The notes beneath the pieces were generated by a model. It did no database searches. It saw nothing but the letters and a program-made list of their open reading frames with translations, and had not been told where the DNA came from. Positions 15,823 to 32,000 of a stretch of DNA of 32,000 nt are shown piece by piece. The translations under genes were made by a program, and so were the position numbers. Source of the stretch: Methanosphaera sp. (GTDB lineage: Archaea; Methanobacteriota; Methanobacteria; Methanobacteriales; Methanobacteriaceae); NCBI RefSeq assembly GCF_016282985.1, contig NZ_JAEELZ010000041.1:17498-49497 (forward strand). The letters run 5' to 3'. How positions within the stretch are numbered: position 1 is the stretch's first letter; each line of letters begins with the position of its first letter.

Positions 15823-15826
15823 TAAA

Positions 15827-16942: not shown

Positions 16943-16965
16943 TGTATCACCCCTTTTAATTTGGA

Positions 16966-17175: not shown

Positions 17176-17182
17176 AACAATC

Positions 17183-18085
17183 CTAGATTAATAAATATTG
17201 GATTTTTTCTGCAGCTATGGCTCCTTGTCCTTCTGCCACCACAATCTGTTTTATTCCACCGGTAACATCACCAACAGCATAGATTCCATCACCATTGGTT
17301 TTCATGTTTTTATCTGTGACGATATATCCTAAATCATCACATTCAACACCTAACTCCAATGCTAACTGATTATTTGGAATATTTCCTATGGCAATGAATA
17401 TGCCGCTTACCTTGACAGTTATTTCTTCGCCTGTCATTCTGTTGGAAATTACAGCTTCTTCTACTCGCATATCTCCCTTGACTTCTTTCAATTCACTGTT
17501 CCAATAAACGGGGATTTTATTTTTTGCAAGATCTTCCTGTAGTTTAATATCACATCTTAATGTGTCACGTCTGTGTACAATGCTACATTTCACGCCGATA
17601 CGTTTCAGGTATAAAGCTTCGGTAGCTGCACTGTTTCCTCCACCGATAACAAGAACTTCTTTGTCAACGAAGAAATTTCCATCACATACGGCACAGTATG
17701 ATACACCTCTGCCCGTAAATTCTTCAACACCAGGAGCATCCAATGTTTGATGGGTGGATCCTGTTGCAAGTATTAAAAATTGTGAACTGAAATTACCCTT
17801 ATTTGTTTCAAGGTTATAACTTAAACCAATTGCCTTTTCAATTTTTGTGATATTTACAAATTCAATTATTTCACAGTACTGTTTTGCCTGTTCGGAAGTA
17901 CTTTTCATTAAGTCCATACCAGGTACTTTGTCAATACCTGGGAAATTTTCCACTAGGGGGGCAGTATTTGCAGTACCTCCACACTGGGCTTTATCCAAGA
18001 TTAAGGTATTGAGTCCTGCACGTCCTGCATAAATGCCTGCAGTAAGACCGGCAGGTCCTGCTCCTATTATAATAAGATCATACAT
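17183..18085 (-). CDS. trxB: Thioredoxin-disulfide reductase (NADPH-type motifs)
   Basis: 300 aa. Motifs: GAGPAG (FAD), redox-active CAVCDG, GGGNSA plus HRRDTLR (NADPH 2'-phosphate binding), GDVTG. Confidence 0.9.
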   Translation of the reverse strand: MYDLIIIGAGPAGLTAGIYAGRAGLNTLILDKAQCGGTANTAPLVENFPGIDKVPGMDLMKSTSEQAKQYCEIIEFVNITKIEKAIGLSYNLETNKGNFSSQFLILATGSTHQTLDAPGVEEFTGRGVSYCAVCDGNFFVDKEVLVIGGGNSAATEALYLKRIGVKCSIVHRRDTLRCDIKLQEDLAKNKIPVYWNSELKEVKGDMRVEEAVISNRMTGEEITVKVSGIFIAIGNIPNNQLALELGVECDDLGYIVTDKNMKTNGDGIYAVGDVTGGIKQIVVAEGQGAIAAEKIQYLLI

Positions 18086-18277
18086 ATAATTTCACTTTTA
18101 TTCTTTTTTTAATAAATAATAATTATATATGTATTATTCTTTTAGTTAAAATTTTACATATTTGATTTTTTCTATTCAAAAGATTGATTTTTAAATTTTA
18201 TATACTATTCTTATCATATAAAATATTGGAAGAATATTTTTAAATAAAAATATATTAAATGCTTCGAGGTTTTTCAA

Positions 18278-19702
18278 TTGGTTAATAATTTTAAGTTTTT
18301 TGTAGCTAAAACATTAGGTAAATTATCATTTCCTATTTTAAAGGTTTTACCTACGGGAGGAAAAAGTTTTCCCGGTTTGGTTTATTTAAACATTGCAGGA
18401 AAAGAAGCATTGGGTGATTTATCTAATCATCAGATAGATGACGGTTCTATATTAATCACTGGGACAAATGGTAAGACAACCACAACCACCATGATAATAA
18501 AAATATTGTCTAATGATTATAAATTAGCCACGTCTGTGGGAAACAACACAATTTATGCTTTAGCAACAGGTTTACTTCATGATAAAGGACAAATGGGTGT
18601 GTTTGAGTATGGAATAAGGGATATTGCACACGGAACACCTGATCTGATTTGTGATCAGATTCAACCAATATGTGTTGTTTATACTAATATTTCAAGAGAA
18701 CATACTCAGGTTGCCGGAGTAAAAAATCCATTTAAGGATTATGTAAAAGCTAAAACCTTATTGTCCGAATCAATGCATGATGGAATATTGATTACAAATG
18801 CGGATGATCCAAATACAACATTCATAGGATTAAATAAAGAAAAAGATAATCATGTTATTTATTATGGATTGGAATTGGAGGATTATGAAGATATTTTTGT
18901 AGAAGAAGATGTTTTATGTCCAAACTGTAATAATAATTTGGAATATACCAATCATTATTTTAATCAAAGAGGAATTTACCATTGCAGTTGTGGTTTCAAA
19001 AGACCGGAACCTGATGTCAAATTAACAAGATTGCTACAAGAGAATAACAAATATTATATTACAATTGATGTGGATGCATATAACTATCGTAAAAAGAATA
19101 ATATCCAGTACACATTGGAAATGGAATTGCCTGTTGTGGGAATACATAATTTATACAACTGTTTGGCAACAATAGCAACATACACGGCATTCACGGATAA
19201 AGAAAATATTAAAGATAATGTAATTAATTTCTTTGAAAACTATGAGTTTGTAATACCTCCCGGACGATTTGAAATTATTAAAATAGGTGGAAAAACTATC
19301 GGAGTAGGTCAGGGAGATAATGGGGATGCACTAAAAGTCAATTCCCTGTTGATGAAGAATTATGTTGATGATGAATTGGAATTTATTTATACAACGCCTG
19401 ATGTAAATGAGGAAGAAATATTTGAAGATCACTGTTTATCAATTAAGGGATTAAATCCTGATAAACTTGTTGTAATGCCCGGACGGGTTTCAACTGAAAT
19501 TTCAGAGGAATATTATAATCAAATTAAGGATCAATTCAATTCGGAATATTGTCCTGTAGAATTTGACTTTGAGAAAAGAATCAATAAAGTATTGGAATTG
19601 ATTAAAAATTCAGAATATAATTATATTATTATCTCAGGTTGTGGTGAAGAAATAATCTTTTGGGATGAATTAAAGAAAAAAATCAGACAATTGAATTTAT
19701 AA
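18278..19702 (+). CDS. MurT-like Mur ligase family protein (central Mur ligase domain with Cys4 zinc ribbon)
   Basis: 474 aa. It starts at TTG with GAGG 10 nt upstream. The P-loop is ITGTNGKTTT. A CPNC-x19-CSC insertion matches the CxxC...CxC ribbon typical of MurT. A GDNGDA segment resembles the MurT DNAAD region. A small hairpin and a T8 terminator follow the stop. Confidence 0.7.
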   Translation: MVNNFKFFVAKTLGKLSFPILKVLPTGGKSFPGLVYLNIAGKEALGDLSNHQIDDGSILITGTNGKTTTTTMIIKILSNDYKLATSVGNNTIYALATGLLHDKGQMGVFEYGIRDIAHGTPDLICDQIQPICVVYTNISREHTQVAGVKNPFKDYVKAKTLLSESMHDGILITNADDPNTTFIGLNKEKDNHVIYYGLELEDYEDIFVEEDVLCPNCNNNLEYTNHYFNQRGIYHCSCGFKRPEPDVKLTRLLQENNKYYITIDVDAYNYRKKNNIQYTLEMELPVVGIHNLYNCLATIATYTAFTDKENIKDNVINFFENYEFVIPPGRFEIIKIGGKTIGVGQGDNGDALKVNSLLMKNYVDDELEFIYTTPDVNEEEIFEDHCLSIKGLNPDKLVVMPGRVSTEISEEYYNQIKDQFNSEYCPVEFDFEKRINKVLELIKNSEYNYIIISGCGEEIIFWDELKKKIRQLNL

Positions 19703-19704
19703 AT

Positions 19705-19730
19705 GGTATTTTTACCAATTACTTTTTTTT
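19705..19730 (+). terminator. Terminator of the MurT-like gene: GGTA-TTTT-TACC hairpin plus T8
   Basis: The hairpin is at 19705-19716 and T8 at 19723-19730, immediately after the stop codon at 19700-19702. Confidence 0.45.
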
Positions 19731-19764
19731 ATAAAATAAAAGGAGTTTAGTATGGAATATAATT

Positions 19765-21660
19765 TTAGTTAATTATATTCTGTATCTCTTTTGTTAATAT
19801 TTTACTAACTATTTTACCGTCAGCTTTTCCTTGGAATTTTGCCATAGCTTTACCCATTAGTGGACCCATAGCACCCATCTTACGTTCTTCTATCATTGAC
19901 TTATTTTCTTCAACGATTTCTTTAATACCCTGGGCAACGGTATCTTCTGATAGTTTTTCCAGGTTGTTCTTTTTAACAGAATCCATTGGACTAATGTCTT
20001 CACAAGCATCCTTGAATATAACTTCTGTTTTTGCTGCAGGAATAACGTCATTATCTACAAGTGCAAATATTTCAACCAAAACGTCCTTGTTGAGTTTTTT
20101 AACATCATAACCGTCACGTTTCAAGTCTCTTATTGTTGACACAATATCTGAAGCAATCTTTGTAGCATCCATATTCGGTAGTTCTGCTTTAATTTCTTCG
20201 AATAAGCCTGCATTGTTACGTTGTACTAACTGTTCAGCCAGTTCATCACTAAGGGAATATTCTTTTTGGATACGTTCTTTTTTAACTGCCGGTAACTCCG
20301 GAAGATTTGATGCAATTCTTGCTACTCTTTCAGGGTCTATGATTTCTGTAGGAATGTCTGTTTCCACATACATTCTACTTGCAGTAGGTAACGGTCTCAT
20401 GTACTCGGTATTTCCATTGTCCTGTGCACGACGAGTTTCCTCAGGAACTCCAATAATCGCATCCTTTGCCCTTTCAATAACTTCATTCAATGCGTTATGT
20501 GCCTTGTCTTTTGGTCCTGCAACAAGGATGAATGCGTCATCATCTTCCAATAATAAATCATTTCTGATACTGTCAACTTCTTCCTGTGTAATACCGTAAT
20601 TTGGCAATTCGTCGGTATGGAATAATCCGGATACTCCCATTTTCTTTCCATGTTCGGAAAACTCTGTACCTAAACGTTTTCCAGGTTGTACTTCACGACC
20701 GATTAAACCGGCAAAGTGTTTGAGTTTAATAGCTAATACTCCACTGTTATCTGCTTCAAGAATACCTTTTACGACTTTGGAGTTGGTGTTTTCAAGTAAT
20801 CCTGTAACATCATAGATGCATGTTTCTACTTTAGCATCACGTTTTTGAAGCTCTTTTGCTATGTCAATAAGGTTTAATTGTCTTTGAACTTCATTTTCCA
20901 CAATGGTTGGCATAAGTTCCAGGTCCTGTACACCTTTAACTTCTATTCTTGCACCTTCCCTAATGGATATGTTAAGGTCTTGTCTAATGGTTCCAAGTCC
21001 CCTTTTAACTTTGGTACTTCTTAAGATTTGACCAAGCTGGTAGGCTACCTGTTGAACCTGTTGTGGGTGATGCATATCAGGGGAAGTTGTAATTTCTGCC
21101 AGAGGAATACCAAGTCGGTCAAGTCGGAATACTATTTTTCCTTCTTCTTCACCAATACGTCTAGCAGCATCTTCTTCAAGACCTAAAGTTTCAATTGTAA
21201 CGTTACCGAATTCTGTTTCAACATAACCGTCTGTTGCAAGGATACCTGTCCTTTGGAAACCGCTGGTGTTACTTCCGTCAATTACCTGTTTACGCATTGT
21301 GTGGAATTCATCGACAACGGTCATGTTCATAAGACTTGCAAGGATGATTGAAATATCAACGGCTTCCTGGTTAAGTTTTGCAGGAGGTTCTTCATCAGCT
21401 TCAACAAGACATGTGTGATGGTTATATGCTTCATAAACAAATTGCAGATTTCTTTGTGATTCCTCGTATGCTGCCCTGTCTATTTCACCAAGTTCACTTT
21501 GGGTAGGTCTAAGTCTACGATATATTCTACGTTCCGGTTTTTTGTCTGTTAAGGAATTTGGACATCTGCAGAATAGTTTTGTTTTGCTGTCTAATTGTTG
21601 GTGAATTTCAAGACCCATCATCAATCCTAATTCTTCATAATTAAATTTATCTTCGGACAT
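19765..21660 (-). CDS. gatE: Glutamyl-tRNA(Gln) amidotransferase subunit E
   Basis: 631 aa. The archaeal GatE N-terminus (GLEIHQQL...KLFC) is present, with a GatB/YqeY-like C-terminal tail. It lies 12 nt downstream of gatD. Confidence 0.95.
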
Positions 21661-21672
21661 ATTATCTTTCCC

Positions 21673-22989
21673 CTAGTTTTTTATAAAGTAGTTTTGAGAT
21701 AATGTGGTATCCATTTCTCCTTTAAGATTAGTCTGCATAATCTTACGAATTTCATCTACATTATCGCTTTGGCCTGCAGCCCATAACAGTTTGGTATAAG
21801 CAGTTTCAGGTAGCATATCACTGACTGGTATAACATTACTGTTTAGAAGTCTACGTCCACTACTATAGACGTTCATGTTTGTTCTACCGAATATGCACTG
21901 GGATGTCATTACTACAGGGATTCCTTCTCCGGTAGCACGTGAAACACTGTCAATTACCTCATCGCTGCAATGTCCAAGACCGGTTCCTTCGAGTACAATT
22001 CCATCATATCCCTTGTCTGTGTATATGTCAATCAATTCTGCATCCATACCAGGATACATTTTCACAAGAGCAACTTTATCTGCTAAATTATTGTTTAATG
22101 ATAATTCAACGTCGCCTCTTTTAGTGTAGCTTACTTCTTCATCATTAATTTTCAGGGTATTGTTTTCAATAGTTGCCAATGGATCCATGTTTATGCTTGT
22201 GAATGTGTCACGACGTGAAGTGTGCATTTTACGTGCTCTTGTTCCTCTGTGAAGTGCACAAGTTGGATCGTCTTCTGATGAATGCATACAGATAGTTACT
22301 TCTGCAACATCTGATTTTGCTGATACAACGGAAGCCATAAGGTTGGTGAATGCGTCACTTGATGGTCTGTCAGAACTACGTTGTGCCCCCGTTAAGACTA
22401 TAGGTACTGGTGTGTCTATCATAAAGCTTAGTGCTGAAGCAGTGTAATGCATGGTATCGGTTCCATGTGCTATGATAACTCCGTCTGCACCATCATTTAT
22501 TTCATCATATACTGCTTCTGCCGTTTCTTTCCAGTATTGTGGGGTCATGTTTTCACTAAGTATGTTGAATATTGCCTTAGCGGTTATGTTTGCATGGTCC
22601 ACTAGTTCGGGTGTTGCTCTTAATAAATCGTCTGCAGTAAATGCCGGATGTACTGCTCCAGTTTTATAATCAATTACACTTGCTACTGTACCACCGGTTG
22701 ATAATATGGAAAGATTATCTTTTTCATCACTTATTTGTTTGTCAACAGGGTCAAGTTCGATTTTCGGTTTTTTTCCTTCCTTTATTTTTTCAATTTTTGC
22801 GTCTTTAACATCAATTCCGATGTTATATCCACTACTGAGTTTGATTATTATTGTATTTTTGTTTGTATAATCTGGTTTTTCAAGTAACATTCCTTCATGT
22901 TCAATGTTTGGTTTTGTTACTCGTACTGTGTCTCCAACGTCTATGTCAGATAATTCCAGAAATTCTTTGAGATATCCTTCATAAGCCAA
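21673..22989 (-). CDS. gatD: Glutamyl-tRNA(Gln) amidotransferase subunit D (asparaginase-like)
   Basis: 438 aa. It starts at TTG with GGAGG 6 nt upstream. Asparaginase-type motifs are present: LSTGGTVAS and IIAHGTDTM. Confidence 0.95.
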
Positions 22990-23057
22990 AGTATTTCCTC
23001 CAAATTTTTAGTTAGTATAAGTTAATCGTGATAATTATCTTTTTTATTTCAATAATT

Positions 23058-23079
23058 AGCAATATATAATTATATTGCT
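23058..23079 (-). promoter_or_regulatory. Perfect 9-bp inverted repeat embedding a TATA-like element upstream of gatD
   Basis: AGCAATATA-TAAT-TATATTGCT lies 69-90 nt upstream of the gatD TTG start. On the minus strand, TTATATAT sits at its centre. Confidence 0.3.
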
Positions 23080-23113
23080 TTCATAGTTTTTATTTTTTCT
23101 TAATGATTCGTTG

Positions 23114-23190
23114 CTTATTTCTTATAACTTTTAACTAATAACTAAAAATTACATTAATTATAACTTTTTAAGTTATAACTTATAACTATA
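23114..23190. repeat. Intergenic palindromic repeat family, copy D (extended)
   Basis: CTTATTTCTTATAACT is at 23114-23129, followed by further TAACT/ATAACT units. The identical 18-mer core is at 23170-23187. Confidence 0.8.
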
Positions 23191-23247
23191 TGAATCATTT
23201 TAATTAATGGAAGTGGTATTATTTATAAAAAGATAAAAAAAGAGAAT

Positions 23248-23709
23248 TTATTCCTCGTTAGGAATAACAAGAATAGGTACTTTGGTATGTCTGACGGTTT
23301 TTTCTGTTACACTGCCTAAAAGGAATCTGTCAAGCATGTGTTTACCACTACTTGCAATAACAATCAAGTCGATGTCGTCGCTTTCAGATATTTTAAGAAT
23401 AACATCTGCAGCATTTCCTTCAATGGTTTTTGTAGTAATTTTTATATCTTTACCTTCAGAACCTTTTTCTTCTTCAATTTCTTTAATGATTGATTCGACT
23501 CTGGAAGTAACTTTTTTACTTTCTTCTTCAAGAATCATTTCGGATTTGGTAATCAAGTCTTCTTCAGGAAGTCCTGTTAGGTAAACACTATCAACAACAT
23601 TTAGAACCACAATTTCAGCATCTTCAAATTCTGCTATTGTTAATGCATGGGCAATAGCCCTTTCAGAATTTTTTGATCCATCGGTAGGTAATAATATTTT
23701 ATTATACAT
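23248..23709 (-). CDS. Universal stress protein (UspA family)
   Basis: 153 aa with GGAGG upstream. Motifs: KILLPTDGS at the N-terminus, and GSVTEKTVRHTKVPILVI at the C-terminus. Confidence 0.85.
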   Translation of the reverse strand: MYNKILLPTDGSKNSERAIAHALTIAEFEDAEIVVLNVVDSVYLTGLPEEDLITKSEMILEEESKKVTSRVESIIKEIEEEKGSEGKDIKITTKTIEGNAADVILKISESDDIDLIVIASSGKHMLDRFLLGSVTEKTVRHTKVPILVIPNEE

Positions 23710-24601
23710 AATTTAACCTCCAGTTTCTTTTACATTTTTTTATGGATATTTAAAATTATATTACTAACATTTAATATTATTATTGTTTAAGTGACGATAT
23801 TTATTTAGAGTATGATTCTTTTGTTTTGTCTTTCTTTTTTGTATTTAAAAATAAAATAAGGTATATATTTCATGTATATGTATATCATAAAAATGTAAGA
23901 TTTTATTAATAAAGTAGGTTATTTAATATTTTAACTGGAATAAAATGGCATGTAATTAGAAAATAACTAAAATTATGTTGGTTGTATTTTATTATTTTTA
24001 ATTGTAATTTACTTTGTAAATGCGTTATTTTATTATGATGTTTTGTCTTTAAAAAATTGATTGTTAGTATTTTATTTTTAATTTATCTTGAGTATATTGT
24101 TTTGATATTGAATATATTAATTAATTGTTTTTAATTAATAAAATTATTATTTTTTTTATTAATAATTATCTTGTTAATCATTTTAAAATAGTTTTTTTTT
24201 ATTAAAAATTGAACATGTTTCAAATATTTTTTTTCATATTAACTAATTTTCATCAGGATTTCTATTTTTTAAAAATTTTTCATAAATCTTTAATATAATC
24301 AATTTGTTTTTAAAATAATTAATTATATGAGTTAATTTTATGGTATAATAAAATAATATAATTATATATAGCAATTTATTCTATAAAATAACTTCAAATT
24401 AAAAATTATTAAAGGATTTATTAAAAAATAAGTTCTAATGTAATTTTTTTGGATATTTCAAATAGTAAAAAATGTATTTGGCAATATCCTATATAAAAAA
24501 TTTAGTTATATCTATAAATTGACTATATATTTTATCTTTTACTTTTGTACCGGAAGTAGGATAAAATTATTTATTAAAACAATGTTTTTTAAGGAGTCAA
24601 C

Positions 24602-27600
24602 ATGAAATTTAATAAGAAATATTGTCTTTTATTTCTTATGACAGTTCTTGTTCTACTCTTGGGTGCGGGAATGGTTTCTGCATCCGAAGCAGGCAGTGAT
24701 GTCCAAGTAATAAAAGACAATCAAGTTTTATCCACACCCGACAATTATGATGTGGATAAAGTGGTACAATCCGATAGGATTCTAACCAAATCGGAGGCAA
24801 ACGTAGAAAAGACAAGCACAAAAGATGACACAAAAAATAACATCAAATCCAATATAGACACATTTGTTAACACATCTAAAACAAATGGAGACAATCAAAC
24901 AATTGCTAATGATAAAAGTCATGGTGCAAAAATTAGTGTTAATGAAATTAGTGGAAGAACATTAAACATTGCAGGCCTGGAAAATTCCGGACTATTGCAA
25001 GAAACAATAGATGTTAAAAAAATATCTGTTAGCGACACAAACAGTATGTCCCTAAATGAAGATATGACTCCTATCTTCAAGGATAATGCTGAAGTTTCTT
25101 CAAATGATGGAATTGACATTAATACAAAGTCAAATAATCAATTACAAGAAACAGACAAAACCATAGTTAAAGAAAATCTTAACCAAAATGTCAAAACAGC
25201 TGATGGTGAAGACTCTGATGAAAGATATAGTGTTATAGTATTTGATGAGCAATATCAAAGAGTTATATATCAGAAACCATGGTTGATGAATGATACTACA
25301 TGGGTATTTTCATTAGGTGCTGGTGAAAACCAAGGCTCTGGTGCAAACCAAAACCTTACTCCGGCATATCAATACTCTTCTAAACCTGTGGGAATATATA
25401 AAAGGATTAAACTGACTGATGATTATGAGATTATTCATCCAATAACAGGTGAAAATATCTTGCCTTATGTTAGAACATTAATCTACAATAATTTTGATAT
25501 TGGGGTTATTGGTTCACACAGCAATGATTTACAAATAGTTGTCAGTAAATTTTCAAATCCTAAAATCAATTACACAAATATCACTTCTATTCCTACTCAA
25601 TCAGTATATAATGGAACTATCCGAGATTATGTAAACAGGACCATTAATCAGGTTCAATCTGGAAATGCCGTGAGCAGTTCTGGTAAATACAAGGATTCAG
25701 ATTTCTTGACTTATCAGTTTTATTTATATAAGGCTGATGAAGAGTTGAATGAATATCATCATTTTGATGCTATTGGATTCCAAATATTATCTAACATTAA
25801 TGTTAAAAAAATATGGAATGATACAAATCATACTAGTGAAAGACCGGATAATGTTACCGTAAAATTATATGCTGATGGTAATAATATTAAAAATATTACT
25901 CTAAATGAATCAAATGATTGGAAAGGTAACTTTACAGATTTACCAGTATATGCTATAGATGAAAATCCAAATCCATTAAATTCAAGTAATTGTCGAATTA
26001 CTGTAGAACCTATTGAACTTGTTGATTTAAATATCAGAAGAACAAGTACTGGAACATGGTATTATAATATCACTGCGAATGGTGAATCTATTATGGGGGT
26101 TTTTACTCTATCTTATAGTTCTAAATCTGTATTTTATAGAAATTTACCAAAATATGATTCAAATGGAAACGAAATTGTCTATGGTGCAATCAGGACTAAT
26201 AGTGCTGGTAAAATATATTCAGCAACTCAAAACTATTTCACAGTTACTACAACAGATAAAACCGGTCAAAATATAACAATACAGGTATATAATAAATCCG
26301 AAAATGAAACCATGCATCTTGGATTGTATCGAAATGGTTCTTTGTGTAATGAGTTCAATGCTTCAGGGGATAATTATACCTTTGCATTTTTAAGAGCTGA
26401 TTCAACATCAAGTTATGAATTAGTCAGATACGATATCATGCACGTGGTTAATTATACCATTGGTGAAGTAGCGGATCCTGATGTTTATGACCAAATTATT
26501 AATGTTACTACTGTGGATATTGGCCCATTGCATAATTCATTAAGAACTTCCATAATATCTAATGATTTTCTTGTTTACAAGGATAATTTAAATCCACTAA
26601 TTAAAGACATAACAATCACTAATACTTATCCTAATAGACCAAAAATATGGGATAATATTGGATTAAAATATATTACAAGTGAAGATTCTATAGTTTCTGA
26701 TGGAAATTACAGTACTTTGTCCTACTGGTATAAATATAATGTTTATTATTATTGGGATTCTTATGCATTGCCATTTTTAATGAATGATACTACCTGGGCT
26801 TACTGTATAGAACCAAGCAATCGAGCACAACCAAATGGTTTATATGGAGAAGGATTATTACCTGGAAGTTTCAAACGATTGACTTTAACGAATGAAAAGA
26901 TTATTCACCCAGTAACTGGTGAGGACATATTACCTTATCTAAGAACTGCATTATATTATCACTTTAATGATACAGAAAACTTCACTACTCAAAGTGGAGG
27001 AAAACCACAAATAAGGTGGTTATTATATGCATTTACTGGTGGTTACAATTATACTGATCCAAATGCTCCTGAAAGTATGGAAACTTATAGGGCGGATGGA
27101 CCTACCAGAATGGAATTTGTTAGAGAAATTATGGATCTAGTTAAATCTGGTAAAGGAATAAACAACACAGGTTCATTCTATGGTTCTGATTATTTAACAT
27201 ATCAATTCTATATTTATTATACTGAAACTGACAATATTGAAGATCATTACCAAAATACCATTGGTTTCAATATTTTAACTAAAATAAATGTCACCAAAGA
27301 CTGGAAAGATTTTGACAATATTGATAATACCAGGCCAGAGAATATAACTGTGGACTTATTGGCTGATAATGTTGTTGTCGCTAATGCTACATTAAATTCA
27401 ACAAATGGTTGGAAGTATAATTTTACAGATTTACCAGTTTATAAAATATATAATGAAGAAGTTAAAGAACCAGACTTTACAGTTACAACTACAACTGCAG
27501 AGGCATGGAATGTAACAGTTAAATTGAACTGGGTTGATGGTACACCTACAGCAGATCATGTTATTGTTTATCCAATAAAAGGATCACAATATCTTCAACC

Positions 27601-30600
27601 ATATCTTTATTTATCCGAAGATAATGATTGGACTGGTAACATAATCTTACCTGTGTATAATTATAGAACCGGTGCTGAAATAACAAACTATAATTTCAGA
27701 TCCAGTAATGGAAATGCAACTTTGGTACTAACTAATGTAACTATTTCTGATGGAGTTAAAAATATTAAGGTAGTACTTAATAATGAAGCTTTAAAAGAAG
27801 AATGGGTTACAGTAGCATTAACAGAAGACGGTTATGAATTCAGGGGAGAACTATTAAATACAGAGAATCCTGAATGTACTTTCGCTGATTTAATCAATTA
27901 TAATGAGGAAGGTAATGAAATTAATTACAATTTAACCATGAGAAGATATGGATGTATTAATGTAATTAATTACACTATCAATGAAACAGGTATTCCTGGT
28001 GAATACACAGTTAAAATAACAAATCATAGTGAAGAAATTAATCCTTTAATGCCAACAAGGGAACAAAATTCAGAAAAATATGTCCATGAATTAATTAATC
28101 CTTTAAATAATCTTTCAACAAGTTTCGAAATTGTAAACACATATGAATTAACCAACTTGACAGTTAAAAAAGTCTGGGATGATTCTGATGATAAAGATGG
28201 TCTAAGACCAAAAAGTATTCAAGTACACATTTATTCTGAAGAAACAGGATATGATGAGGTTATAGTTTTAAACAAAAACAATAACTGGACCAAGACCATA
28301 ACAAAATTACAAAAATATGGTAAAGACTCTTCATTAATACAATATAATGTAGAAGAATTGGAAGTTCCAAATGAATATGCTGTCAGTGTAAAAGAAGATT
28401 CATATAACTTTACAATAACAAATACTCACATACCCGAAATGTTAAGTATATCCGTTGAAAAAGTCTGGAACGATTCTGATGATATTGAAGGCTTCAGACC
28501 ATCAAATGTCACAATTAAAGTTTTAGCTAATGGAGAACAATACGGTGATGAAATCATTCTAACCAATGAAACAAATTGGTCTTATAATGTAACAGGTCTT
28601 CCAAAATACTTAAATGGAAAATTAATGAACTACACTATTGAAGAAATAGTTCCAGAACATTATAATGTTTCTTATAACATATCAAATGTGGATGAAAATA
28701 AGAAAATACCTACAAAAGCACGTGTGGAACTTGTTTCATTTGATACTAATGCTATTACATATCGTATATTTGTTACAAATTTAACAAATGATCTTGTTAA
28801 ATCTGGAAATATCGAGGTTATTGATAAAGAGGGCAATGTTAATGCTACTGGTGAATTATCCGAGGGTTATGTTGATATTCTATGGTCATTAAGTAAAGAT
28901 TTTGAAGTTACAGTTAACTATCTAGGAAATGATGAATATCTTGAAAGTAATACTACTATCAAGGAATCAGAAGTACTTGTTGAATATATGGGTCCGGGAG
29001 TATTGCCATATCTAATGACTGACGGTATTTGGGGATATTGTATTCAGAGAGGAGCACAAGATCCAAACAATGAAATAGGTTCTGATGGTGATACTCCAGT
29101 TTGGATGCCATATAAAAAAATTGCAATGACTAATGAAACCATAATGAATCCAAGAACTCATGAAGATGTACTACCATATATTCGTACATTACTGTTCTAT
29201 CATGCTAAAGATGGTGAAAATTTCACATTAATGGATAATGGTTTGGCAGCTAATATTAATGATCCTAGTATATATATATTTTTAGAGGGCAACAGAACTC
29301 ATTCTGATGGTAGGTATGTAGGCACCCATTATGAGGATCGTAGTACTTATAGTGGTCCTGGGGGGACTGCAGAACTTAATCAAAAAGAAGGTGATGCAGT
29401 TTATGAAGTTTACCAAATGGTTCAAAATGGTAATGCTATTGGAAATAAAGGTGTAGTTAATTATACAGAAAATGGAAAATGGATGTATCAATTTTATTTA
29501 TACAAACCTTTATTACACAGTGCTTGGCAGAGTCTAATTGGTCTAGAATATTATTTTGTTCCTCTAGAACCTAATTACGAAGTAGAAATTATCAATACTC
29601 ACATTCCTGAAAATGTTACTATAAATGTAACCAAAGTATGGAATGACACTGATAATCAGGATGGTATGCGTCCAGTAAACGTTACAGTTGCTTTATTTAA
29701 GGATGGTATTTTAAATGATACTATTGTATTAAATGAATCTAACGGTTGGATGGGTAATTTTACAGATTTACCAAAATATGCTAATGCCCATTTAATTAAT
29801 TATACTGTTAATGAAACGAAAGTTCCTGTAAATTATACTCAAGAAGTTTCAAATTCAGGTAACAATTATACAATTACCAATACTCACATTCCATTAGTAA
29901 CAAGTTTAAATGTTACAAAAAAATGGGATGATAAAAATAATACTGATGGAAAAAGACCTGATGTTATATTAGTTCAGTTATATGCTAATAATGTAACAAA
30001 AGGTGAACCGATATCATTATATAGTGGTAATAATTGGACTTATGTATTTGAAAACTTGGATAAATACAGCAATGGTGTTTTAATCAATTATACTGTTGAT
30101 GAGATAACGGTTCCTGAAGGTTATACTAAAACCATTACAAACAAATCCAATAACTTTACTATAAAGAACACTCATGTTCCTGAAAAAACTACTGTTAACG
30201 TGACTAAGGTATGGAATGATGTTAACAATACTGATGGTTTAAGACCTGTCAGTGTAAACATCACTTTGGTTATTGATGGTAAAAAATCAGATCAGACTGT
30301 TCAGATTAATGCTACTAATTGGACGTATACTTTTGAAAACTTACCAAAATATCGTGACAATGGTACATTAATTAAATATAATGTAACAGAAGAAAAAGTA
30401 GAGAACTATGAAACTACTATTGTATTCTGTGAAGGTATTTTCAAAGTAATCAACTCACATATTCCTGAAAATACTTCAGTAAATGTGACTAAAGTTTGGA
30501 ATGACAATAATAACCAGGATGGTGTTCGTCCTGCTAACGTAACAGTGCAGTTATTACGTGATGGTAAAGAATACAATTCCACAGTATTATCCGAGAATAA

Positions 30601-32000
30601 TAATTGGTATGCTGTATTCAACAATTTACCTAAATATCATGATGAAGGTAAAGAGTACAAATATACTATTATAGAAGTTGCTATTCCTGGTTACTCTGGC
30701 GTTGTTACAAATGTTTCAACAGAATTCACAGTAAACAACACTCACATTCCTGAAAATACTTCAGTAAATGTAAGTAAAGTTTGGAATGATGCAGATAACA
30801 ATGATGCTCTTCGTCCAAACAATGTAACTATAACTTTGGTTATAGATGGTGTTGTAAGTGACAATAAAGTACAAATTAACAGTACAAACTGGAACTACAC
30901 ATTTGAAAACCTTCCTAAGTATCGTGATGGTGGAATTTTAATAGTGTATAATGTTACCGAGGATGCTGTTGAGGATTACACTACTGATATTGTCTTCTGT
31001 GAAGGTAGATTCAAGGTTATCAACACTCATGTTCCTGAAGTTGTTAACAAAACAGTTAACAAGGTTTGGGATGATGCTGATAACAGGGATAATATGAGAC
31101 CTTCTAAAGTTACCATTAAATTGAAATCAAATGATGGTAATGAGTATGTTGCAGTTATTGAGGAAGTTAACGGAAAATGGAATTACACATTCACTGATTT
31201 ACCAAAATATGCAAATGGTAAATTAATTGAATATACAGTAGAGGAAAGTGTTGTTCCTGATGGTTATGATGTTGAATATGATCAGGATACATTAACAATA
31301 ACCAACATTCATGAATTCTTAACTAAGGAAATAAATGTTGTTAAAGTATGGGATGATGCTGATACAGCTAAAGATCGTCCTGAAAATATTACAGTCTTCT
31401 TAGTTGCTGATGACGAAGTTGTTGCCAATCTTACTTTAACTGGTGATAAATGGACTGATAAGTTCGCAGACTTGCCAGTATATAAAGAAGGAGAAGTTGG
31501 TGTGGAAATTGTTTACTCAATTAAAGAGTTAACAGTTGCTAACTACACAACTGTAATAACAAACATTAGCGATGATTGGACCATTACCAACACTCACATT
31601 CCAGAACTTGTAGATATTACAATCAACAAAGTATGGAACGATAACAATAATCAGGACGCTTTAAGAACTAATGTTACCATAATTCTTAAGGCCGAGGGTG
31701 TAAACGTTCAAAATGGAACAGTTCAAGTCAACAGTACTGATGACTGGACATACACATTCAGTAATTTACCTAAGTATGCAAATGGTAAAGAAATAGTTTA
31801 CACAATTGAAGAGGTTGTACCTTATGGTTACACCGTAACAATTGAAGGTTATACTATTACCAACACCCATGAAGTATACACCAAGGAAATTAACGTGACA
31901 AAAGTTTGGAATGATAACAATGATAATGACAATGCCAGAATGGATGTTGTTGTTGAATTACTGGCTGATGGTGAAAAGGTAGATGAAACCACTCTTAATG
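24602..32000 (+). CDS. Giant secreted adhesin-like protein (more than 2,466 aa, 3' end outside window): signal peptide, N/T/S-rich linker, three thioester-domain-like modules, many Cna-B-type repeats
   Basis: This ORF is not in the supplied track. AAGGAG (24591-24596) is followed by a 5-nt spacer and ATG 24602. I translated every codon through 27300 and from 27301 to 29940, and read the rest by eye; I found no in-frame stop to base 32000. The signal peptide is MKFNKKYCLLFLMTVLVLLLGAGMVSA. All track ORFs in this span are short and antisense or out of frame. Confidence 0.9.
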   Translation, partial: MKFNKKYCLLFLMTVLVLLLGAGMVSASEAGSDVQVIKDNQVLSTPDNYDVDKVVQSDRILTKSEANVEKTSTKDDTKNNIKSNIDTFVNTSKTNGDNQTIANDKSHGAKISVNEISGRTLNIAGLENSGLLQETIDVKKISVSDTNSMSLNEDMTPIFKDNAEVSSNDGIDINTKSNNQLQETDKTIVKENLNQNVKTADGEDSDERYSVIVFDEQYQRVIYQKPWLMNDTTWVFSLGAGENQGSGANQNLTPAYQYSSKPVGIYKRIKLTDDYEIIHPITGENILPYVRTLIYNNFDIGVIGSHSNDLQIVVSKFSNPKINYTNITSIPTQSVYNGTIRDYVNRTINQVQSGNAVSSSGKYKDSDFLTYQFYLYKADEELNEYHHFDAIGFQILSNINVKKIWNDTNHTSERPDNVTVKLYADGNNIKNITLNESNDWKGNFTDLPVYAIDENPNPLNSSNCRITVEPIELVDLNIRRTSTGTWYYNITANGESIMGVFTLSYSSKSVFYRNLPKYDSNGNEIVYGAIRTNSAGKIYSATQNYFTVTTTDKTGQNITIQVYNKSENETMHLGLYRNGSLCNEFNASGDNYTFAFLRADSTSSYELVRYDIMHVVNYTIGEVADPDVYDQIINVTTVDIGPLHNSLRTSIISNDFLVYKDNLNPLIKDITITNTYPNRPKIWDNIGLKYITSEDSIVSDGNYSTLSYWYKYNVYYYWDSYALPFLMNDTTWAYCIEPSNRAQPNGLYGEGLLPGSFKRLTLTNEKIIHPVTGEDILPYLRTALYYHFNDTENFTTQSGGKPQIRWLLYAFTGGYNYTDPNAPESMETYRADGPTRMEFVREIMDLVKSGKGINNTGSFYGSDYLTYQFYIYYTETDNIEDHYQNTIGFNILTKINVTKDWKDFDNIDNTRPENITVDLLADNVVVANATLNSTNGWKYNFTDLPVYKIYNEEVKEPDFTVTTTTAEAWNVTVKLNWVDGTPTADHVIVYPIKGSQYLQPYLYLSEDNDWTGNIILPVYNYRTGAEITNYNFRSSNGNATLVLTNVTISDGVKNIKVVLNNEALKEEWVTVALTEDGYEFRGELLNTENPECTFADLINYNEEGNEINYNLTMRRYGCINVINYTINETGIPGEYTVKITNHSEEINPLMPTREQNSEKYVHELINPLNNLSTSFEIVNTYELTNLTVKKVWDDSDDKDGLRPKSIQVHIYSEETGYDEVIVLNKNNNWTKTITKLQKYGKDSSLIQYNVEELEVPNEYAVSVKEDSYNFTITNTHIPEMLSISVEKVWNDSDDIEGFRPSNVTIKVLANGEQYGDEIILTNETNWSYNVTGLPKYLNGKLMNYTIEEIVPEHYNVSYNISNVDENKKIPTKARVELVSFDTNAITYRIFVTNLTNDLVKSGNIEVIDKEGNVNATGELSEGYVDILWSLSKDFEVTVNYLGNDEYLESNTTIKESEVLVEYMGPGVLPYLMTDGIWGYCIQRGAQDPNNEIGSDGDTPVWMPYKKIAMTNETIMNPRTHEDVLPYIRTLLFYHAKDGENFTLMDNGLAANINDPSIYIFLEGNRTHSDGRYVGTHYEDRSTYSGPGGTAELNQKEGDAVYEVYQMVQNGNAIGNKGVVNYTENGKWMYQFYLYKPLLHSAWQSLIGLEYYFVPLEPNYEVEIINTHIPENVTINVTKVWNDTDNQDGMRPVNVTVALFKDGILNDTIVLNESNGWMGNFTDLPKYANAHLINYTVNETKVPVNYTQEVSNSGNNYTITNTHIPLVTSLNVTKKWDDKNNTDGKRPDVILVQLYANNVTKGEPISLYSGNNWTYVFENLDKYSNGVLINYTVDEITVPEGYTKTITNKSNNFTIKNTHVPEKTTVNVTKVWNDVNNTDGLRPVSVNITLVIDGKKSDQTVQINATNWTYTFENLPKYRDNGTLIKYNVTEEKVENYETTIVFCEGIFKVINSHIPENTSVNVTKVWNDNNNQDGVRPANVTVQLLRDGKEYNSTVLSENNNWYAVFNNLPKYHDEGKEYKYTIIEVAIPGYSGVVTNVSTEFTVNNTHIPENTSVNVSKVWNDADNNDALRPNNVTITLVIDGVVSDNKVQINSTNWNYTFENLPKYRDGGILIVYNVTEDAVEDYTTDIVFCEGRFKVINTHVPEVVNKTVNKVWDDADNRDNMRPSKVTIKLKSNDGNEYVAVIEEVNGKWNYTFTDLPKYANGKLIEYTVEESVVPDGYDVEYDQDTLTITNIHEFLTKEINVVKVWDDADTAKDRPENITVFLVADDEVVANLTLTGDKWTDKFADLPVYKEGEVGVEIVYSIKELTVANYTTVITNISDDWTITNTHIPELVDITINKVWNDNNNQDALRTNVTIILKAEGVNVQNGTVQVNSTDDWTYTFSNLPKYANGKEIVYTIEEVVPYGYTVTIEGYTITNTHEVYTKEINVTKVWNDNNDNDNARMDVVVELLADGEKVDETTLN
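25225..25795 (+). other. TED-like module 1 (degenerate: Ser and Asp at the positions of the Cys and Gln in modules 2/3)
   Basis: It is paralogous to modules 2 and 3, sharing LMNDTTW, IIHPITGENILPYVRT, LTYQFYLY and AIGF. It has WVFSLG (Ser codon 25310-25312) and HHFDAIGF (Asp codon 25766-25768). Confidence 0.5.
26752..27285 (+). other. TED-like module 2 (putative internal Cys-Gln thioester domain)
   Basis: It has NDTTWAYCIEPS (Cys codon 26804-26806) and DHYQNTIGF (Gln codon 27251-27253), with the Gln 149 residues after the Cys. A Cna-B-type domain follows directly. Confidence 0.5.
28148..28690 (+). repeat. Two Cna-B-type domain repeats (coding)
   Basis: Repeat 1: LTVKKVWDDSDDKDGLRP...NW...KLQKYG...YNVEELEVPNEY...FTITNTH. 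Repeat 2: ISVEKVWNDSDDIEGFRP...NW...GLPKY...YTIEEIVPEHY. Confidence 0.75.
28982..29575 (+). other. TED-like module 3 (putative internal Cys-Gln thioester domain)
   Basis: It has DGIWGYCIQRG (Cys codon 29039-29041) and SAWQSLIGL (Gln codon 29528-29530), with the Gln 163 residues after the Cys. It is flanked by Ig-like/Cna-B domains. Confidence 0.5.
29596..32000 (+). repeat. Tandem array of nine Cna-B-type domain repeats (last one truncated by the window edge), period ~272-290 bp
   Basis: The T-H-(I/V)-P / I-H-E-F / T-H-E-V linkers start at 29596, 29881, 30171, 30454, 30741, 31024, 31306, 31592 and 31864. Each unit reads V.KVW(N/D)D..N.D..RP..V.(V/I).L.......NW.Y.F..LPKY..G..I.Y.V.E..VP.GY......(I/V).N(T/S)H. 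Confidence 0.85.

What the first reader, a model, noticed from the sequence alone, without database searches (positions are those of the whole stretch)
24602..32000. Giant secreted ORF (more than 2,466 codons, runs off the window) that the supplied ORF track does not list
From ATG 24602 (AAGGAG 24591-24596, 5-nt spacer), the frame with codon starts at 24602+3n stays open to the last base of the window. I translated it line by line and found no stop. The track shows only 60-70-aa antisense or out-of-frame ORFs in this 7.4 kb, probably because it requires a terminating stop codon. The product starts with a signal peptide (MKFNKKYCLLFLMTVLVLLLGAGMVSA/SEA), then ~170 aa of N/T/S/K-rich linker, then repeated modules (see separate findings). 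It occupies 23% of the window. Its C-terminus, and therefore its anchoring mechanism, is not visible.
Basis: seen in the sequence. Interest (0 to 1): 0.7.

Follow-up and report, generated by a model that had tools for sequence, protein, structure and literature searches.

The report
Giant archaeal thioester-type surface adhesin
The open frame is real: it is the first 2,466 residues of a giant, sugar-coated surface fibre of a gut methanogen (Methanosphaera), built like the covalent "thioester-isopeptide" adhesins of Gram-positive bacteria, a design not yet described in archaea in the literature searched.

Summary
Observation confirmed. ATG 24602, preceded by AAGGAG and an in-frame TAA at 24590, opens a frame with no stop through base 31999 (2,466 codons, chance about 1e-95). 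The ORF tool omits it only because it runs off the window. Neighbouring genes (GatD/GatE, aNOP56, fibrillarin) and 98% identical contigs place it in Methanosphaera. Four other assemblies carry the same gene (more than 3,035 and more than 4,109 residues) and none reaches a stop, so the C-terminus remains unseen.

Architecture:
- a cleavable-looking signal peptide and an N/T/S/K-rich linker;
- three roughly 200-residue modules interspersed with Cna_B domains;
- a terminal array of at least nine Cna_B repeats that keep the Lys/Glu/Asn isopeptide triad.

The three modules belong to a tiny family found only in Methanosphaera and Methanobrevibacter. They are divergent thioester domains (TEDs):
- they carry the YCI[EQ] and [YW]Q-x-[LI][IL]G motifs with TED-like spacing;
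- Cys and Gln are kept together or lost together;
- they give sub-threshold hits to Pfam and NCBIfam thioester models;
- hhalign against genuine bacterial TEDs gives P=7.6e-5, aligning Cys to Cys and Gln to Gln.

Against this, Foldseek found no TED structure. N-glycosylation sequons are 2.5-fold enriched (z=11.6), unlike in bacterial homologues.

Most likely this is a covalent-binding fibrillar adhesin acquired from gut Firmicutes and adapted to an archaeal surface.

The parts
24591..24596 (+). Shine-Dalgarno-like AAGGAG, 5 nt before the ATG
   Evidence: Read directly from the sequence. An in-frame TAA lies at 24590.
24602..31999 (+). Giant ORF: 2,466 complete codons, truncated at its 3' end by the window edge
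   Evidence: No stop codon. Pfam Cna_B E=3.4e-247 with 14 stretches. Orthologues exceed 3,035 aa (L010, L011) and 4,109 aa (L001) and are also truncated.
24602..24682 (+). Signal peptide or N-terminal hydrophobic helix (aa 1-27, MKFNKKYCLLFLMTVLVLLLGAGMVSA|SEA)
   Evidence: It is the only TM-like segment in the visible protein. The VSA|S site is conserved in relatives. Cleavage is inferred, not shown.
24683..25216 (+). N/T/S/K-rich linker (aa 28-205)
   Evidence: Translation. By my reading of the sequences, it is largely shared with fragments P0008 and P0010, whose downstream domains differ.
25226..25816 (+). TED-like module M1 (aa 209-405), degenerate: Ser237 replaces the Cys and Phe388 replaces the Gln
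   Evidence: Family HMM E=1.6e-84. Alignment A3. Residue positions.
25802..26701 (+). Cna_B domain split by an insert of about 190 aa made of degenerate beta domains (aa 401-700)
   Evidence: Custom Cna_B HMM hits at 401-466, 489-562 and 556-651. Together with M1 it forms a supermodule of about 490 aa, repeated at 32% identity.
26708..27304 (+). TED-like module M2 (aa 703-901): Cys735 in YCIE, Gln884 in HYQNTIG
   Evidence: Pfam TED_2 E=3.5e-4, below the curated cut-off. AlphaFold2 model pLDDT 84 with beta/helix/beta topology. hhalign to bacterial TEDs P=7.6e-5. Residue positions.
27290..28741 (+). Second split Cna_B (aa 897-1187) followed by two canonical Cna_B repeats (aa 1188-1380)
   Evidence: Custom HMM coordinates.
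28754..28951 (+). Short beta-rich spacer domain (aa 1385-1450) with no family assignment
   Evidence: Not covered by the Cna_B or TED-like HMMs. The same segment precedes TED-like modules in P0008, P0010 and P0002.
28967..29602 (+). TED-like module M3 (aa 1456-1667): Cys1480 in YCIQ, Gln1643 in AWQSLIG
   Evidence: Family HMM E=1.2e-82. 94% identical to the matching module in the Methanosphaera MAG locus L001. Residue positions.
29627..31999 (+). Array of nine complete Cna_B repeats plus the start of a tenth (aa 1676-2466), keeping the Lys/Glu/Asn triad
   Evidence: Custom HMM E=1e-31 to 1e-40 per repeat. Triad conserved in at least 9 of 10 repeats, with spacing K->E 60 and E->N 22 against 61 and 23 in Cna 1D2O. 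40-48% identical to Firmicute plasmid Cna_B proteins.
30177..30183 (+). Junction where this strain lacks an in-frame 853-codon cassette (a fourth TED-like module plus Cna_B repeats) present in three other strains
   Evidence: blastn against L001, L010 and L032. The window follows copy A up to TTCCTGA and copy B after it. The two flanking copies are 81% identical and share only 7 nt at the junction.

Best explanation
The frame is a real, intact gene in the core chromosome of a Methanosphaera, a pseudomurein-walled gut methanogen. It encodes the N-terminal 2,466 residues of a surface fibre that is probably 3,000 to more than 4,000 residues long.

**Shown**
- An export signal and a long low-complexity linker.
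- Three modules of about 200 residues belonging to a very small family restricted to Methanosphaera and Methanobrevibacter.
- At least 13 Cna_B domains.
- Strong enrichment of N-X-S/T sequons.

**Inferred, in decreasing order of support**
1. The Cna_B repeats form Lys-Asn isopeptide bonds and act as a rigid, protease-resistant stalk.
2. The three modules are divergent class-I-like thioester domains. M2 and M3 carry a buried Cys-Gln thioester that can react with a nucleophile, typically a lysine amine, on a target surface and so attach the cell covalently. M1 has lost both residues and can at most bind non-covalently.
3. The protein is heavily N-glycosylated by the archaeal AglB pathway.
4. The ancestral gene came from gut Firmicutes, whose thioester-isopeptide-ester (TIE) adhesins have the same TED-plus-Cna_B layout. 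It was then expanded by duplication and cassette exchange of a TED/Cna_B supermodule of about 490 aa.

The target (partner bacteria, mucus or host protein) and the anchor (an uncleaved N-terminal helix or an unseen C-terminal signal) are unknown.
For: **Gene reality.** The frame has no stop in 2,466 codons. Four independent assemblies are 94-98% identical.

**Organism.** Neighbouring genes encode GatD, GatE, aNOP56, fibrillarin and a Mur-ligase-like protein. The closest loci are Methanosphaera MAGs.

**Stalk.**
- Pfam Cna_B E=3.4e-247.
- The K/E/N triad is conserved in at least 9 of 10 repeats, with the same spacing as Lys633/Glu694/Asn717 of Cna 1D2O (PMC12617251).

**Thioester-domain (TED) homology.**
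- Motifs YCIE/YCIQ and YQNTI/WQSLI fit [YFL]C-Phi-zeta and Phi-Q-zeta-Phi-Phi of Walden 2015 (PMC4450167).
- Cys-to-Gln spacing is 149 and 163 residues, against 129-153 in solved TEDs.
- In 18 modules, all 15 with the Cys keep the Gln, and the 3 without the Cys also lack the Gln.
- Pfam TED_2 gives E=3.5e-4.
- NCBIfam NF012162 'thioester-forming surface-anchored protein' gives E=7.4e-4 and 0.012, covering profile positions 72-231 of 234.
- hhalign of the archaeal profile against two genuine bacterial TEDs gives P=7.6e-5 over 131 columns, with Cys on Cys and Gln on Gln. Forty shuffled controls reached at most score 17.2, against 35.4 for the real alignment.
- The AlphaFold2 model (pLDDT 84) has the beta / core helices / beta layout, with both motifs next to strands.

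**Glycosylation.** There are 108 sequons against 42.6 +/- 5.6 in shuffles (z=11.6). Bacterial homologues give z of about 1.6.

**Firmicute link.**
- The Cna_B repeats are 40-48% identical to Enterococcus and Lactococcus plasmid proteins.
- They are 47% identical to a Streptococcus infantarius TED+Cna_B protein.

**Same layout in small complete relatives.** Signal, TED-like module, Cna_B repeats, then a C-terminal xATGNP + TM + basic tail.
Against: - No curated thioester model reaches its cut-off: 20.9 bits against 27, and 19.4 against 40.
- Only 1 of 18 modules hits Pfam TED_2 and 2 of 18 hit NF012162.
- A profile search of PDB sequences found nothing.
- The model coordinates could not be read, so the Cys-Gln distance is unknown.
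- The three Cys/Gln-less modules are probably orthologous, so the co-loss may represent only one or two evolutionary events.
- TEDs interspersed along a stalk are atypical. Bacterial TEDs are almost always N-terminal.
- If the N-terminal helix is an uncleaved anchor, as PMC11532034 proposes for methanogen adhesin-like proteins, the modules would sit near the membrane and not at the tip.
- No experiment shows expression, thioester formation, glycosylation or adhesion.
Confidence: 0.62

Rival explanations
1. The protein is a giant Cna_B-stalk surface protein, but the 200-residue modules are not reactive thioester domains. They would be TED-derived or merely TED-like binding or spacer domains that act non-covalently, or only structurally.
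For: - All curated thioester models score below their cut-offs.
- Foldseek finds no TED structure.
- M1 has demonstrably lost Cys and Gln yet is conserved across three proteins, so the fold has a function that needs no thioester.
- The modules sit at internal positions along the stalk, unlike bacterial TEDs.
Against: - Cys is rare in this protein (9 in 2,466 residues), yet it is kept in the YC[IL]x motif in 15 of 18 modules, always together with the Gln.
- The alignment to genuine TEDs places Cys on Cys and Gln on Gln.
Confidence: 0.25
2. The protein is not an adhesin. It would be a structural or protective component of the cell envelope: a heavily glycosylated coat or sheath fibre over the pseudomurein.
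For: - Extreme sequon enrichment.
- The gene lies among housekeeping genes.
- Its size is large and no binding partner is known.
Against: - The domain set (Cna_B, TED-like) is the one used by bacterial fibrillar adhesins.
- The gene varies between strains by cassette indels, which is typical of interaction proteins.
- The family is confined to gut and rumen Methanobacteriales.
Confidence: 0.1
3. The long frame is an assembly artefact (repeat collapse or chimera) or a decaying pseudogene.
For: - The window lacks 2,559 nt that three other assemblies have.
- Related genes in other assemblies carry frameshifts (P0002, P0010) or sit on a chimeric contig (L032).
- Most assemblies break at this gene.
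Against: - The frame is intact for 7.4 kb.
- Internal DNA repeats are at most 83% identical.
- The missing segment is exactly 853 codons and is bounded at a domain border. The flanking copies share only 7 nt there, too little for a k-mer collapse.
- Elsewhere the sequence is 98% identical to L010.
Confidence: 0.03

Closest known systems
TIE (thioester-isopeptide-ester) adhesins of Gram-positive bacteria, e.g. SfbI, Cpa, BaTIE, TIE-pLS20 (Walden 2015, PMC4450167; Miller 2018, PMC6194298)
   Same: - Secretion signal.
- A Cys/Gln thioester-type module followed directly by Cna_B-type isopeptide domains that form a stalk.
- The same Cys and Gln motifs and spacing.
   Different: - The host is an archaeon, whereas the 2015 survey found TEDs 'exclusively in Gram-positive bacteria'.
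- There are three to four modules per protein, spread along the stalk, and the first is inactivated.
- The modules are too divergent for Pfam and NCBIfam cut-offs.
- Sequons are strongly enriched.
- No LPXTG is seen, and M. stadtmanae DSM 3091 is reported to have no sortase (PMC2812497).
Staphylococcus aureus Cna B-region / Pfam Cna_B (PF05738) fibrillar-adhesin stalks, including large Enterococcus plasmid Cna_B proteins (L008, 2,551 aa)
   Same: - 40-48% identity per repeat pair.
- The same Lys/Glu/Asn triad and spacing.
- Tandem arrays of a comparable number of repeats.
   Different: - The bacterial proteins end in LPXTG.
- They show no sequon enrichment (z about 1.5).
- The Enterococcus and Bacillus examples checked carry no TED-like module.
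Adhesin-like proteins (ALPs) of Methanobrevibacter smithii and Methanosphaera stadtmanae (PMC11532034; bioRxiv 2026.08.03.742440; Leahy 2010, PMC2812497). From my own knowledge, also the 'Asn/Thr-rich large proteins' of Fricke et al. 2006
   Same: - Very large, repeat-rich, Asn/Thr-rich surface proteins of gut methanogens with an N-terminal hydrophobic helix.
- 37-42 such proteins per M. stadtmanae genome.
   Different: - Described ALPs are built from archaeal Big domains, right-handed beta-helix domains and a membrane anchor.
- The two ALP architecture papers (PMC11532034 and the 2026 preprint) never mention Cna_B, isopeptide, thioester or sortase.
- This protein gives no Big or beta-helix Pfam hit.
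Small Methanobrevibacter relatives (P0003-P0006, L003-L007; 750-1,835 aa)
   Same: - The same supermodule of TED-like module plus split Cna_B, at 35-38% identity over about 500 aa.
- A similar signal peptide.
   Different: - They have one module only and are complete genes.
- Their C-termini are visible: either xATGNP + TM + basic tail, or an acidic tail.
- The giant concatenates several such units.

Membership tests
Cna_B (PF05738) isopeptide stalk domain | Match to the curated model above the gathering score | tested here: met
   800 bits against a cut-off of 22.3, with 14 stretches.
Cna_B (PF05738) isopeptide stalk domain | Lys (first strand), catalytic Glu and Asn (last strand) triad | tested here: met
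   K in V-x-K-V-W, E in Y-x-x-x-E and N in N-x-H are conserved in at least 9 of 10 repeats. Spacing is 60 and 22, against 61 and 23 in 1D2O.
Cna_B (PF05738) isopeptide stalk domain | The isopeptide bond is actually formed | not testable with these tools
   Needs mass spectrometry or a crystal structure.
Thioester domain (TED; PF08341, PF20610, NF012162) | Match to a curated model above its cut-off | tested here: not met
   TED_2 scores 20.9 bits against 27 (E=3.5e-4), in 1 of 18 modules. NF012162 scores 19.4 bits against 40 (E=7.4e-4), in 2 of 18 modules.
Thioester domain (TED; PF08341, PF20610, NF012162) | [YFL]-C-hydrophobic-hydrophilic motif in a beta context | tested here: met
   YCIE (Cys735) and YCIQ (Cys1480). 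In the model the Cys ends strand 38-41. Not met in M1, which has VFSLG.
Thioester domain (TED; PF08341, PF20610, NF012162) | [quoted passage not shown] | tested here: met
   YQNTI (Gln884, spacing 149) and WQSLI (Gln1643, spacing 163). The same YQ[DN]xLG occurs in a PGAP-named Cys-Gln thioester protein.
Thioester domain (TED; PF08341, PF20610, NF012162) | Profile-level homology to genuine TEDs over the whole domain | tested here: met
   hhalign P=7.6e-5, probability 62%, 131 columns, with C on C and Q on Q. Shuffled controls reach at most 17.2 against 35.4. The template profile holds only two sequences.
Thioester domain (TED; PF08341, PF20610, NF012162) | Fold: central core helices between two beta regions, similar to solved TEDs | tested here: inconclusive
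Thioester domain (TED; PF08341, PF20610, NF012162) | Cys-Gln thioester formed (-17 Da, amine-reactive) | not testable with these tools
   Needs intact-mass MS of recombinant modules and their Cys-to-Ala variants.
TIE proteins (Walden 2015) | Secretion signal, then TED, then tandem isopeptide/ester stalk repeats | tested here: met
   The difference is several TED-like modules interspersed along the stalk.
TIE proteins (Walden 2015) | C-terminal LPXTG sortase signal | not testable with these tools
   The C-terminus is absent from the window and from every assembly found. Small relatives end in xATGNP + TM + basic tail, which matches no sorting model.
TIE proteins (Walden 2015) | Found in Gram-positive bacteria | tested here: not met
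   The host is a Methanosphaera archaeon.
Methanobacteriales adhesin-like proteins of the ABD/RBH/MAD type (PMC11532034) | Archaeal Big domains and/or right-handed beta-helix domains | tested here: not met
   The Pfam scan of the 2,466 aa returns only Cna_B and a weak TED_2 hit.
Methanobacteriales adhesin-like proteins of the ABD/RBH/MAD type (PMC11532034) | N-terminal hydrophobic helix (signal or anchor); large, Asn/Thr-rich, repeat-rich | tested here: met
   The helix spans aa 6-28. Composition is N 11.7% and T 9.8%.

The most novel reading that the evidence does not exclude
These would be the first thioester (TIE-type) covalent adhesins of Archaea. The family is confined to gut and rumen Methanobacteriales, was acquired from Firmicutes, and was then rebuilt:
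- several thioester 'warheads' plus one inactivated module per molecule;
- an isopeptide-locked stalk;
- dense archaeal N-glycosylation;
- strain-to-strain cassette exchange.

Such a protein could let a methanogen bond covalently to its hydrogen- or methanol-producing bacterial partners, or to host mucus.
Probability: 0.5. Interest if true: 0.75.

Novelty: new variant of a known kind. Interest (0 to 1): 0.58.

Why it matters
How gut methanogens hold on to partner bacteria or to the host is an open question. Their many 'adhesin-like proteins' have no demonstrated mechanism (PMC11532034 and the 2026 preprint).

A thioester-bearing, isopeptide-stabilised fibre gives a concrete hypothesis that can be tested with a simple experiment: intact-mass MS of a 200-residue recombinant module and its Cys-to-Ala mutant.

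If confirmed, it would:
- extend covalent thioester adhesion from Gram-positive bacteria to Archaea;
- document an inter-domain transfer followed by adaptation to archaeal glycosylation;
- define a domain family that Pfam and NCBIfam do not currently recognise.

On the practical side, the gene breaks most short-read assemblies and is missed by ORF callers that require a stop codon, so it is likely under-annotated.

Tried and rejected
**Finding the stop codon**
- A genome-contig scan found L001, which is open to the contig end at 4,109 aa.
- A neighbour look-up with the Usp protein showed that most contigs end within 1 kb of the gene start. L010 and L011 carry it open to 3,035 aa.
- A metagenome scan returned only distant Methanobrevibacter-type loci, at most 36% identical.
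- P0002 and P0010 end in frameshifts and continue in another frame.
- The 60.8-kb contig L032 looked as if it showed the gene end. It is a chimera that switches in mid-domain to a GC-rich bacterial gene.

**Structure route to the TED question**
- The first AlphaFold2 run, with a 4-sequence alignment, was unusable (pLDDT 45).
- The second run, with 18 sequences, was good, but Foldseek against the PDB gave only noise.

**Sequence route to the TED question**
- phmmer and hmmsearch against PDB sequences found nothing.
- tblastn of M2 against plasmids found nothing relevant.
- hhalign against a truncated single TED (P0030) gave only a 10-column match.
- pLS20 (AB615352) is not in the plasmid collection.
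- Two large plasmid Cna_B proteins, examined as possible sources of a TED, had none.

**Other**
- The word-indexed protein database returned only proteins of 357 aa or less. It therefore never showed the protein itself or long relatives.
- The sortase idea: no TLxTC-type gene lies next to the relatives, and the C-terminal tails match no known sorting model.
Full report

Yes. Translating 24602-32000 on the + strand gives 2,466 codons and no stop.

An in-frame TAA at 24590 rules out an earlier start. With the local base composition (31% G+C), a stop-free run of this length has a probability of about 1e-95.

The ORF tool lists only seven ORFs of 54-72 aa in 23710-32000.

**2. Whose gene is it?**

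The rest of the window holds housekeeping genes:
- CBS-domain proteins, prephenate dehydratase, CoaBC, fibrillarin, aNOP56 and PyrD/PyrK;
- NADP-glutamate dehydrogenase, an AAA ATPase and thioredoxin reductase;
- a Mur-ligase-like protein with weak pMurC similarity;
- archaeal GatE and GatD, and a universal stress protein (Usp).

The Usp neighbour is found with identical sequence on many contigs. Contigs L012 and L013 (the latter from GCA_045657765.1) match window 13,241-24,118 at 97.6-98.4% DNA identity. The best genome locus is a MAG labelled Methanosphaera stadtmanae (L001).

The organism is therefore a Methanosphaera. The gene sits in the core chromosome and has the same G+C content as its surroundings.

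**3. Is it an assembly artefact?**

No.
- L010 and L011 (Logan), L001 (a MAG) and L032 (a long-read contig) carry the same gene at 94-98% identity over 5.7-8.4 kb.
- Inside the ORF, DNA repeats are at most 83% identical over no more than 308 nt. A repeat collapse is therefore unlikely.

There is one structural difference. At window 30177-30183 this sequence lacks exactly 2,559 nt (853 codons) that L001, L010 and L032 have.
- The missing segment holds a fourth TED-like module and several Cna_B repeats.
- The window follows the upstream repeat copy up to the domain-border sequence ...NTHVPE and the downstream copy after it.
- The two copies are 81% identical and share only 7 nt at the switch.

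This looks like a genuine in-frame cassette deletion or insertion between strains, not a k-mer mis-join. Only reads from the source sample could prove it.

**4. How long is the protein, and how does it end?**

Both are unknown. The orthologue in L001 is open for 4,109 residues to the contig end. L010 and L011 are open for 3,035 residues.

Of 138 database blocks that carry the Usp neighbour, 118 have contigs under 5 kb. Most of the longer contigs stop within 1 kb of the gene start. Related genes end in frameshifts, and the one contig that seemed to show an end is chimeric.

The visible part has a single hydrophobic segment, at aa 6-28.

**5. Anatomy**

| Residues | Feature |
|---|---|
| 1-27 | Signal peptide with VSA\|SEA |
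| 28-205 | N/T/S/K-rich linker |
| 209-405 | Module M1 |
| 401-700 | Cna_B domain split by an insert of about 190 aa |
| 703-901 | Module M2 |
| 897-1187 | Second split Cna_B |
| 1188-1380 | Two canonical Cna_B repeats |
| 1385-1450 | Short beta-rich domain, unassigned |
| 1456-1667 | Module M3 |
| 1676-2466 | Nine Cna_B repeats and the start of a tenth |

M1 plus the first split Cna_B, and M2 plus the second, form a supermodule of about 490 aa that is repeated at 32% identity. The same supermodule makes up the body of small Methanobrevibacter proteins, at 35-38% identity.

**6. The stalk**

Pfam Cna_B scores E=3.4e-247. The repeats conserve K (VxKVW), E (YxxxE) and N (NxH) in at least 9 of 10 copies. 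The spacing is 60 and 22 residues, against 61 and 23 for the Lys633/Glu694/Asn717 isopeptide triad of S. aureus Cna (PMC12617251).

The repeats are 40-48% identical to Cna_B proteins on Enterococcus, Lactococcus and Lactobacillus plasmids. They are 47% identical to a Streptococcus infantarius protein that itself carries a TED followed by Cna_B repeats.

**7. The 200-residue modules**

The family is very small.
- An exhaustive profile search of 1.84 billion representative proteins found 12 members.
- The genome scan found 7 loci and the metagenome scan 8.
- Every genome locus comes from a Methanosphaera, Methanobrevibacter or Methanobacteriaceae assembly.
- No Pfam or NCBIfam model claims the modules.

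Evidence that they are divergent thioester domains:
- (a) The motifs YCIE/YCIQ and YQNTI/WQSLI fit the two defining TED motifs. The Cys-to-Gln spacing is 149 and 163 residues, against 129-153 in solved TEDs.
- (b) Cys makes up only 0.4% of the protein. Even so, 15 of 18 aligned modules keep this Cys, and all 15 keep the Gln. The three modules without the Cys (M1 here, and the first modules of L002 and P0002) also lack the Gln. These three are probably orthologous, so they represent one or two evolutionary events, not three.
- (c) The best Pfam hit of M2 is TED_2 (E=3.5e-4). The best NCBIfam hit of two Methanobrevibacter modules is NF012162, 'thioester-forming surface-anchored protein' (E=7.4e-4 and 0.012). 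That alignment runs from the Cys to the Gln, covering profile positions 72-231 of 234.
- (d) I retrieved a PGAP-annotated 'Cys-Gln thioester bond-forming surface protein' from a Ligilactobacillus salivarius plasmid. It shows VAYCINE, RIIYNGYP, TQLAIWHYSDS and LNLNIYVKDDSTYQDLLG. The archaeal modules show WAYCIEP, LRTALYYHFND, LLYAFTGG and LTYQFYLY...HYQNILG.
- (e) hhalign of the 18-module profile against this protein gives P=7.7e-4. Adding the S. infantarius TED to the template improves it to P=7.6e-5, probability 62%, 131 columns, with Cys on Cys and Gln on Gln.
- (f) Forty column-shuffled templates scored at most 17.2, and the reversed template 19.5, against 35.4 for the real alignment.
- (g) The AlphaFold2 model of M2 (18-sequence alignment, pLDDT 84, pTM 0.83) has N-terminal strands, a central block of helices and C-terminal strands. 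The Cys lies at a strand end and the Gln at a strand start. This matches the TED description in PMC4450167.

Evidence against:
- Every curated model stays below its cut-off.
- Foldseek of the model against the PDB finds nothing, TEDs included.
- I could not measure the Cys-Gln distance.

I put TED homology at about 0.8, and an actually formed, reactive thioester in M2 and M3 at about 0.55-0.6.

**8. Glycosylation signal**

There are 108 N-X-S/T sequons, against 42.6 +/- 5.6 in composition-preserving shuffles (z=11.6). The orthologue L001 gives z=13.8, and the Methanobrevibacter relatives give z=4-6.5. The Enterococcus, Bacillus and Streptococcus homologues give z=1.5-1.7.

Many sequons fall on conserved repeat positions (NVT, NWT, NYT, NTH). 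This fits adaptation of a bacterial scaffold to archaeal N-glycosylation. That reading is an inference.

**9. Mechanism proposed**

The protein is exported by Sec. Its Cna_B domains lock themselves with isopeptide bonds into a long, protease-resistant, glycan-covered stalk. M2 and M3 present buried thioesters that react with amines on a target and bond the cell to it covalently, as SfbI does with fibrinogen Lys100 (PMC4450167). M1 has lost its chemistry and may contribute recognition.

Not known:
- the target;
- which end is anchored;
- whether the signal peptide is cleaved.

Small complete relatives have the bacterial topology: signal, TED-like module, Cna_B repeats, then xATGNP + TM + basic tail. 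Methanobrevibacter genomes have one sortase each, but M. stadtmanae DSM 3091 is reported to have none (PMC2812497).

**10. Comparison and novelty**

Giant Asn/Thr-rich adhesin-like proteins are known in Methanosphaera, with 37-42 per genome. A very large surface ORF is therefore expected there.

What appears to be new is the type. The architecture papers on methanogen adhesin-like proteins describe Big-like domains, beta-helix domains and anchor domains. They never mention Cna_B, isopeptide, thioester or sortase. The TED literature reports TEDs only in Gram-positive bacteria. Full-text searches combining thioester domain or Cna B-type with Methanobrevibacter, Methanosphaera, methanogen or archaea found no report. 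Subscription journals are not covered by these searches.

I class it as a new variant of a known kind: a TIE-like adhesin in an archaeon, with several warheads and sequon enrichment.

**11. Verdict**

The finding as worded (a big ORF missed by a track) is ordinary. What the ORF encodes is moderately to clearly interesting and can be tested directly.

Noticed in passing
window 30177-30183; L001 11282-13841; L010 (reverse complement) about 8385-10945: Compared with three other strains, the window lacks an in-frame 853-codon cassette holding a fourth TED-like module and several Cna_B repeats. The break lies exactly at an NTH[VI]PE domain border, and the flanking copies share only 7 nt there. This suggests cassette-type variation of the adhesin between strains.
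   Followed up: yes
L005 6304-10380, L006 9551-15055, L007 695-2983; P0004, P0005, P0006 C-termini: Complete Methanobrevibacter relatives end in a conserved K-x-[AR]-T-G-N-P + hydrophobic helix of about 18 aa + R/K tail. The layout resembles LPXTG, but no Pfam or NCBIfam sorting model matches it and no sortase gene lies nearby. It may be an undescribed sorting signal of pseudomurein archaea.
   Followed up: partly
P0003 (aa 690-854), L003, L004, P0012, P0013 C-termini: A second type of C-terminus has no TM helix. Instead there is a conserved block of about 100 aa (...YLY...Y.DFVA.L.ENG...D...N.....D.DN..D.P) followed by an acidic tail. It is shared between a TED+Cna_B protein and TED-like proteins that carry Chlam_PMP/NosD beta-helix repeats. 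The TED-like module therefore also occurs in the classical beta-helix type of methanogen adhesin-like protein.
   Followed up: partly
window 24602-31999 and orthologues: N-X-S/T sequons are 2.5-fold over-represented (z=11.6). They sit at conserved positions of the Cna_B repeats. Bacterial homologues show no enrichment (z about 1.6).
   Followed up: yes
window 24683-25216 (aa 28-205); P0008 and P0010 N-termini: Fragments P0008 and P0010 share much the same signal peptide and linker (similarity judged by eye, not measured) but continue into different domain orders, with Cna_B repeats first and a TED-like module much later. They are either alleles of this locus or paralogues that share a 5' cassette. 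Their contigs are too short to tell.
   Followed up: partly
window 23710-24601: The intergenic region upstream of the giant gene is 892 nt long and very AT-rich (22-24% G+C), with several TATA-like runs. This is unusually long for this compact genome. I did not analyse it for promoters or small RNAs.
   Followed up: no
window 11802-13940 (+): A second surface-type protein of 712 aa lies in the window. It has Big_1, Big_3_5 and CarboxypepD_reg domains and an N-terminal match to TIGR04134, 'radical SAM-associated putative lipoprotein'.
   Followed up: no
L032 9870-9900 (ENA ERZ4902868 contig_87833): This long-read contig switches in mid-domain (...INSTNWNY|QTSRYHH...) from the Methanosphaera adhesin to GC-rich bacterial genes (PYC_OADA, LptD_2). 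It is a chimeric assembly and carries many frameshifts.
   Followed up: yes
L030 10560-10830; L031 4900-4930: The related giant genes encoding P0002 (3,117 aa, four TED-like modules) and P0010 each 'end' at a frameshift and continue in another frame to the contig end. Their database lengths are therefore underestimates.
   Followed up: partly
window 18278-19702 (+): A 474-aa Mur-ligase-family protein matches the pseudomurein ligase pMurC (119 bits against a cut-off of 560) and MurT only weakly. It may be an uncharacterised member of the pseudomurein ligase set.
   Followed up: no
Neither the giant protein nor any long relative could be retrieved from it. The exhaustive representative search did return long relatives.
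   Followed up: no
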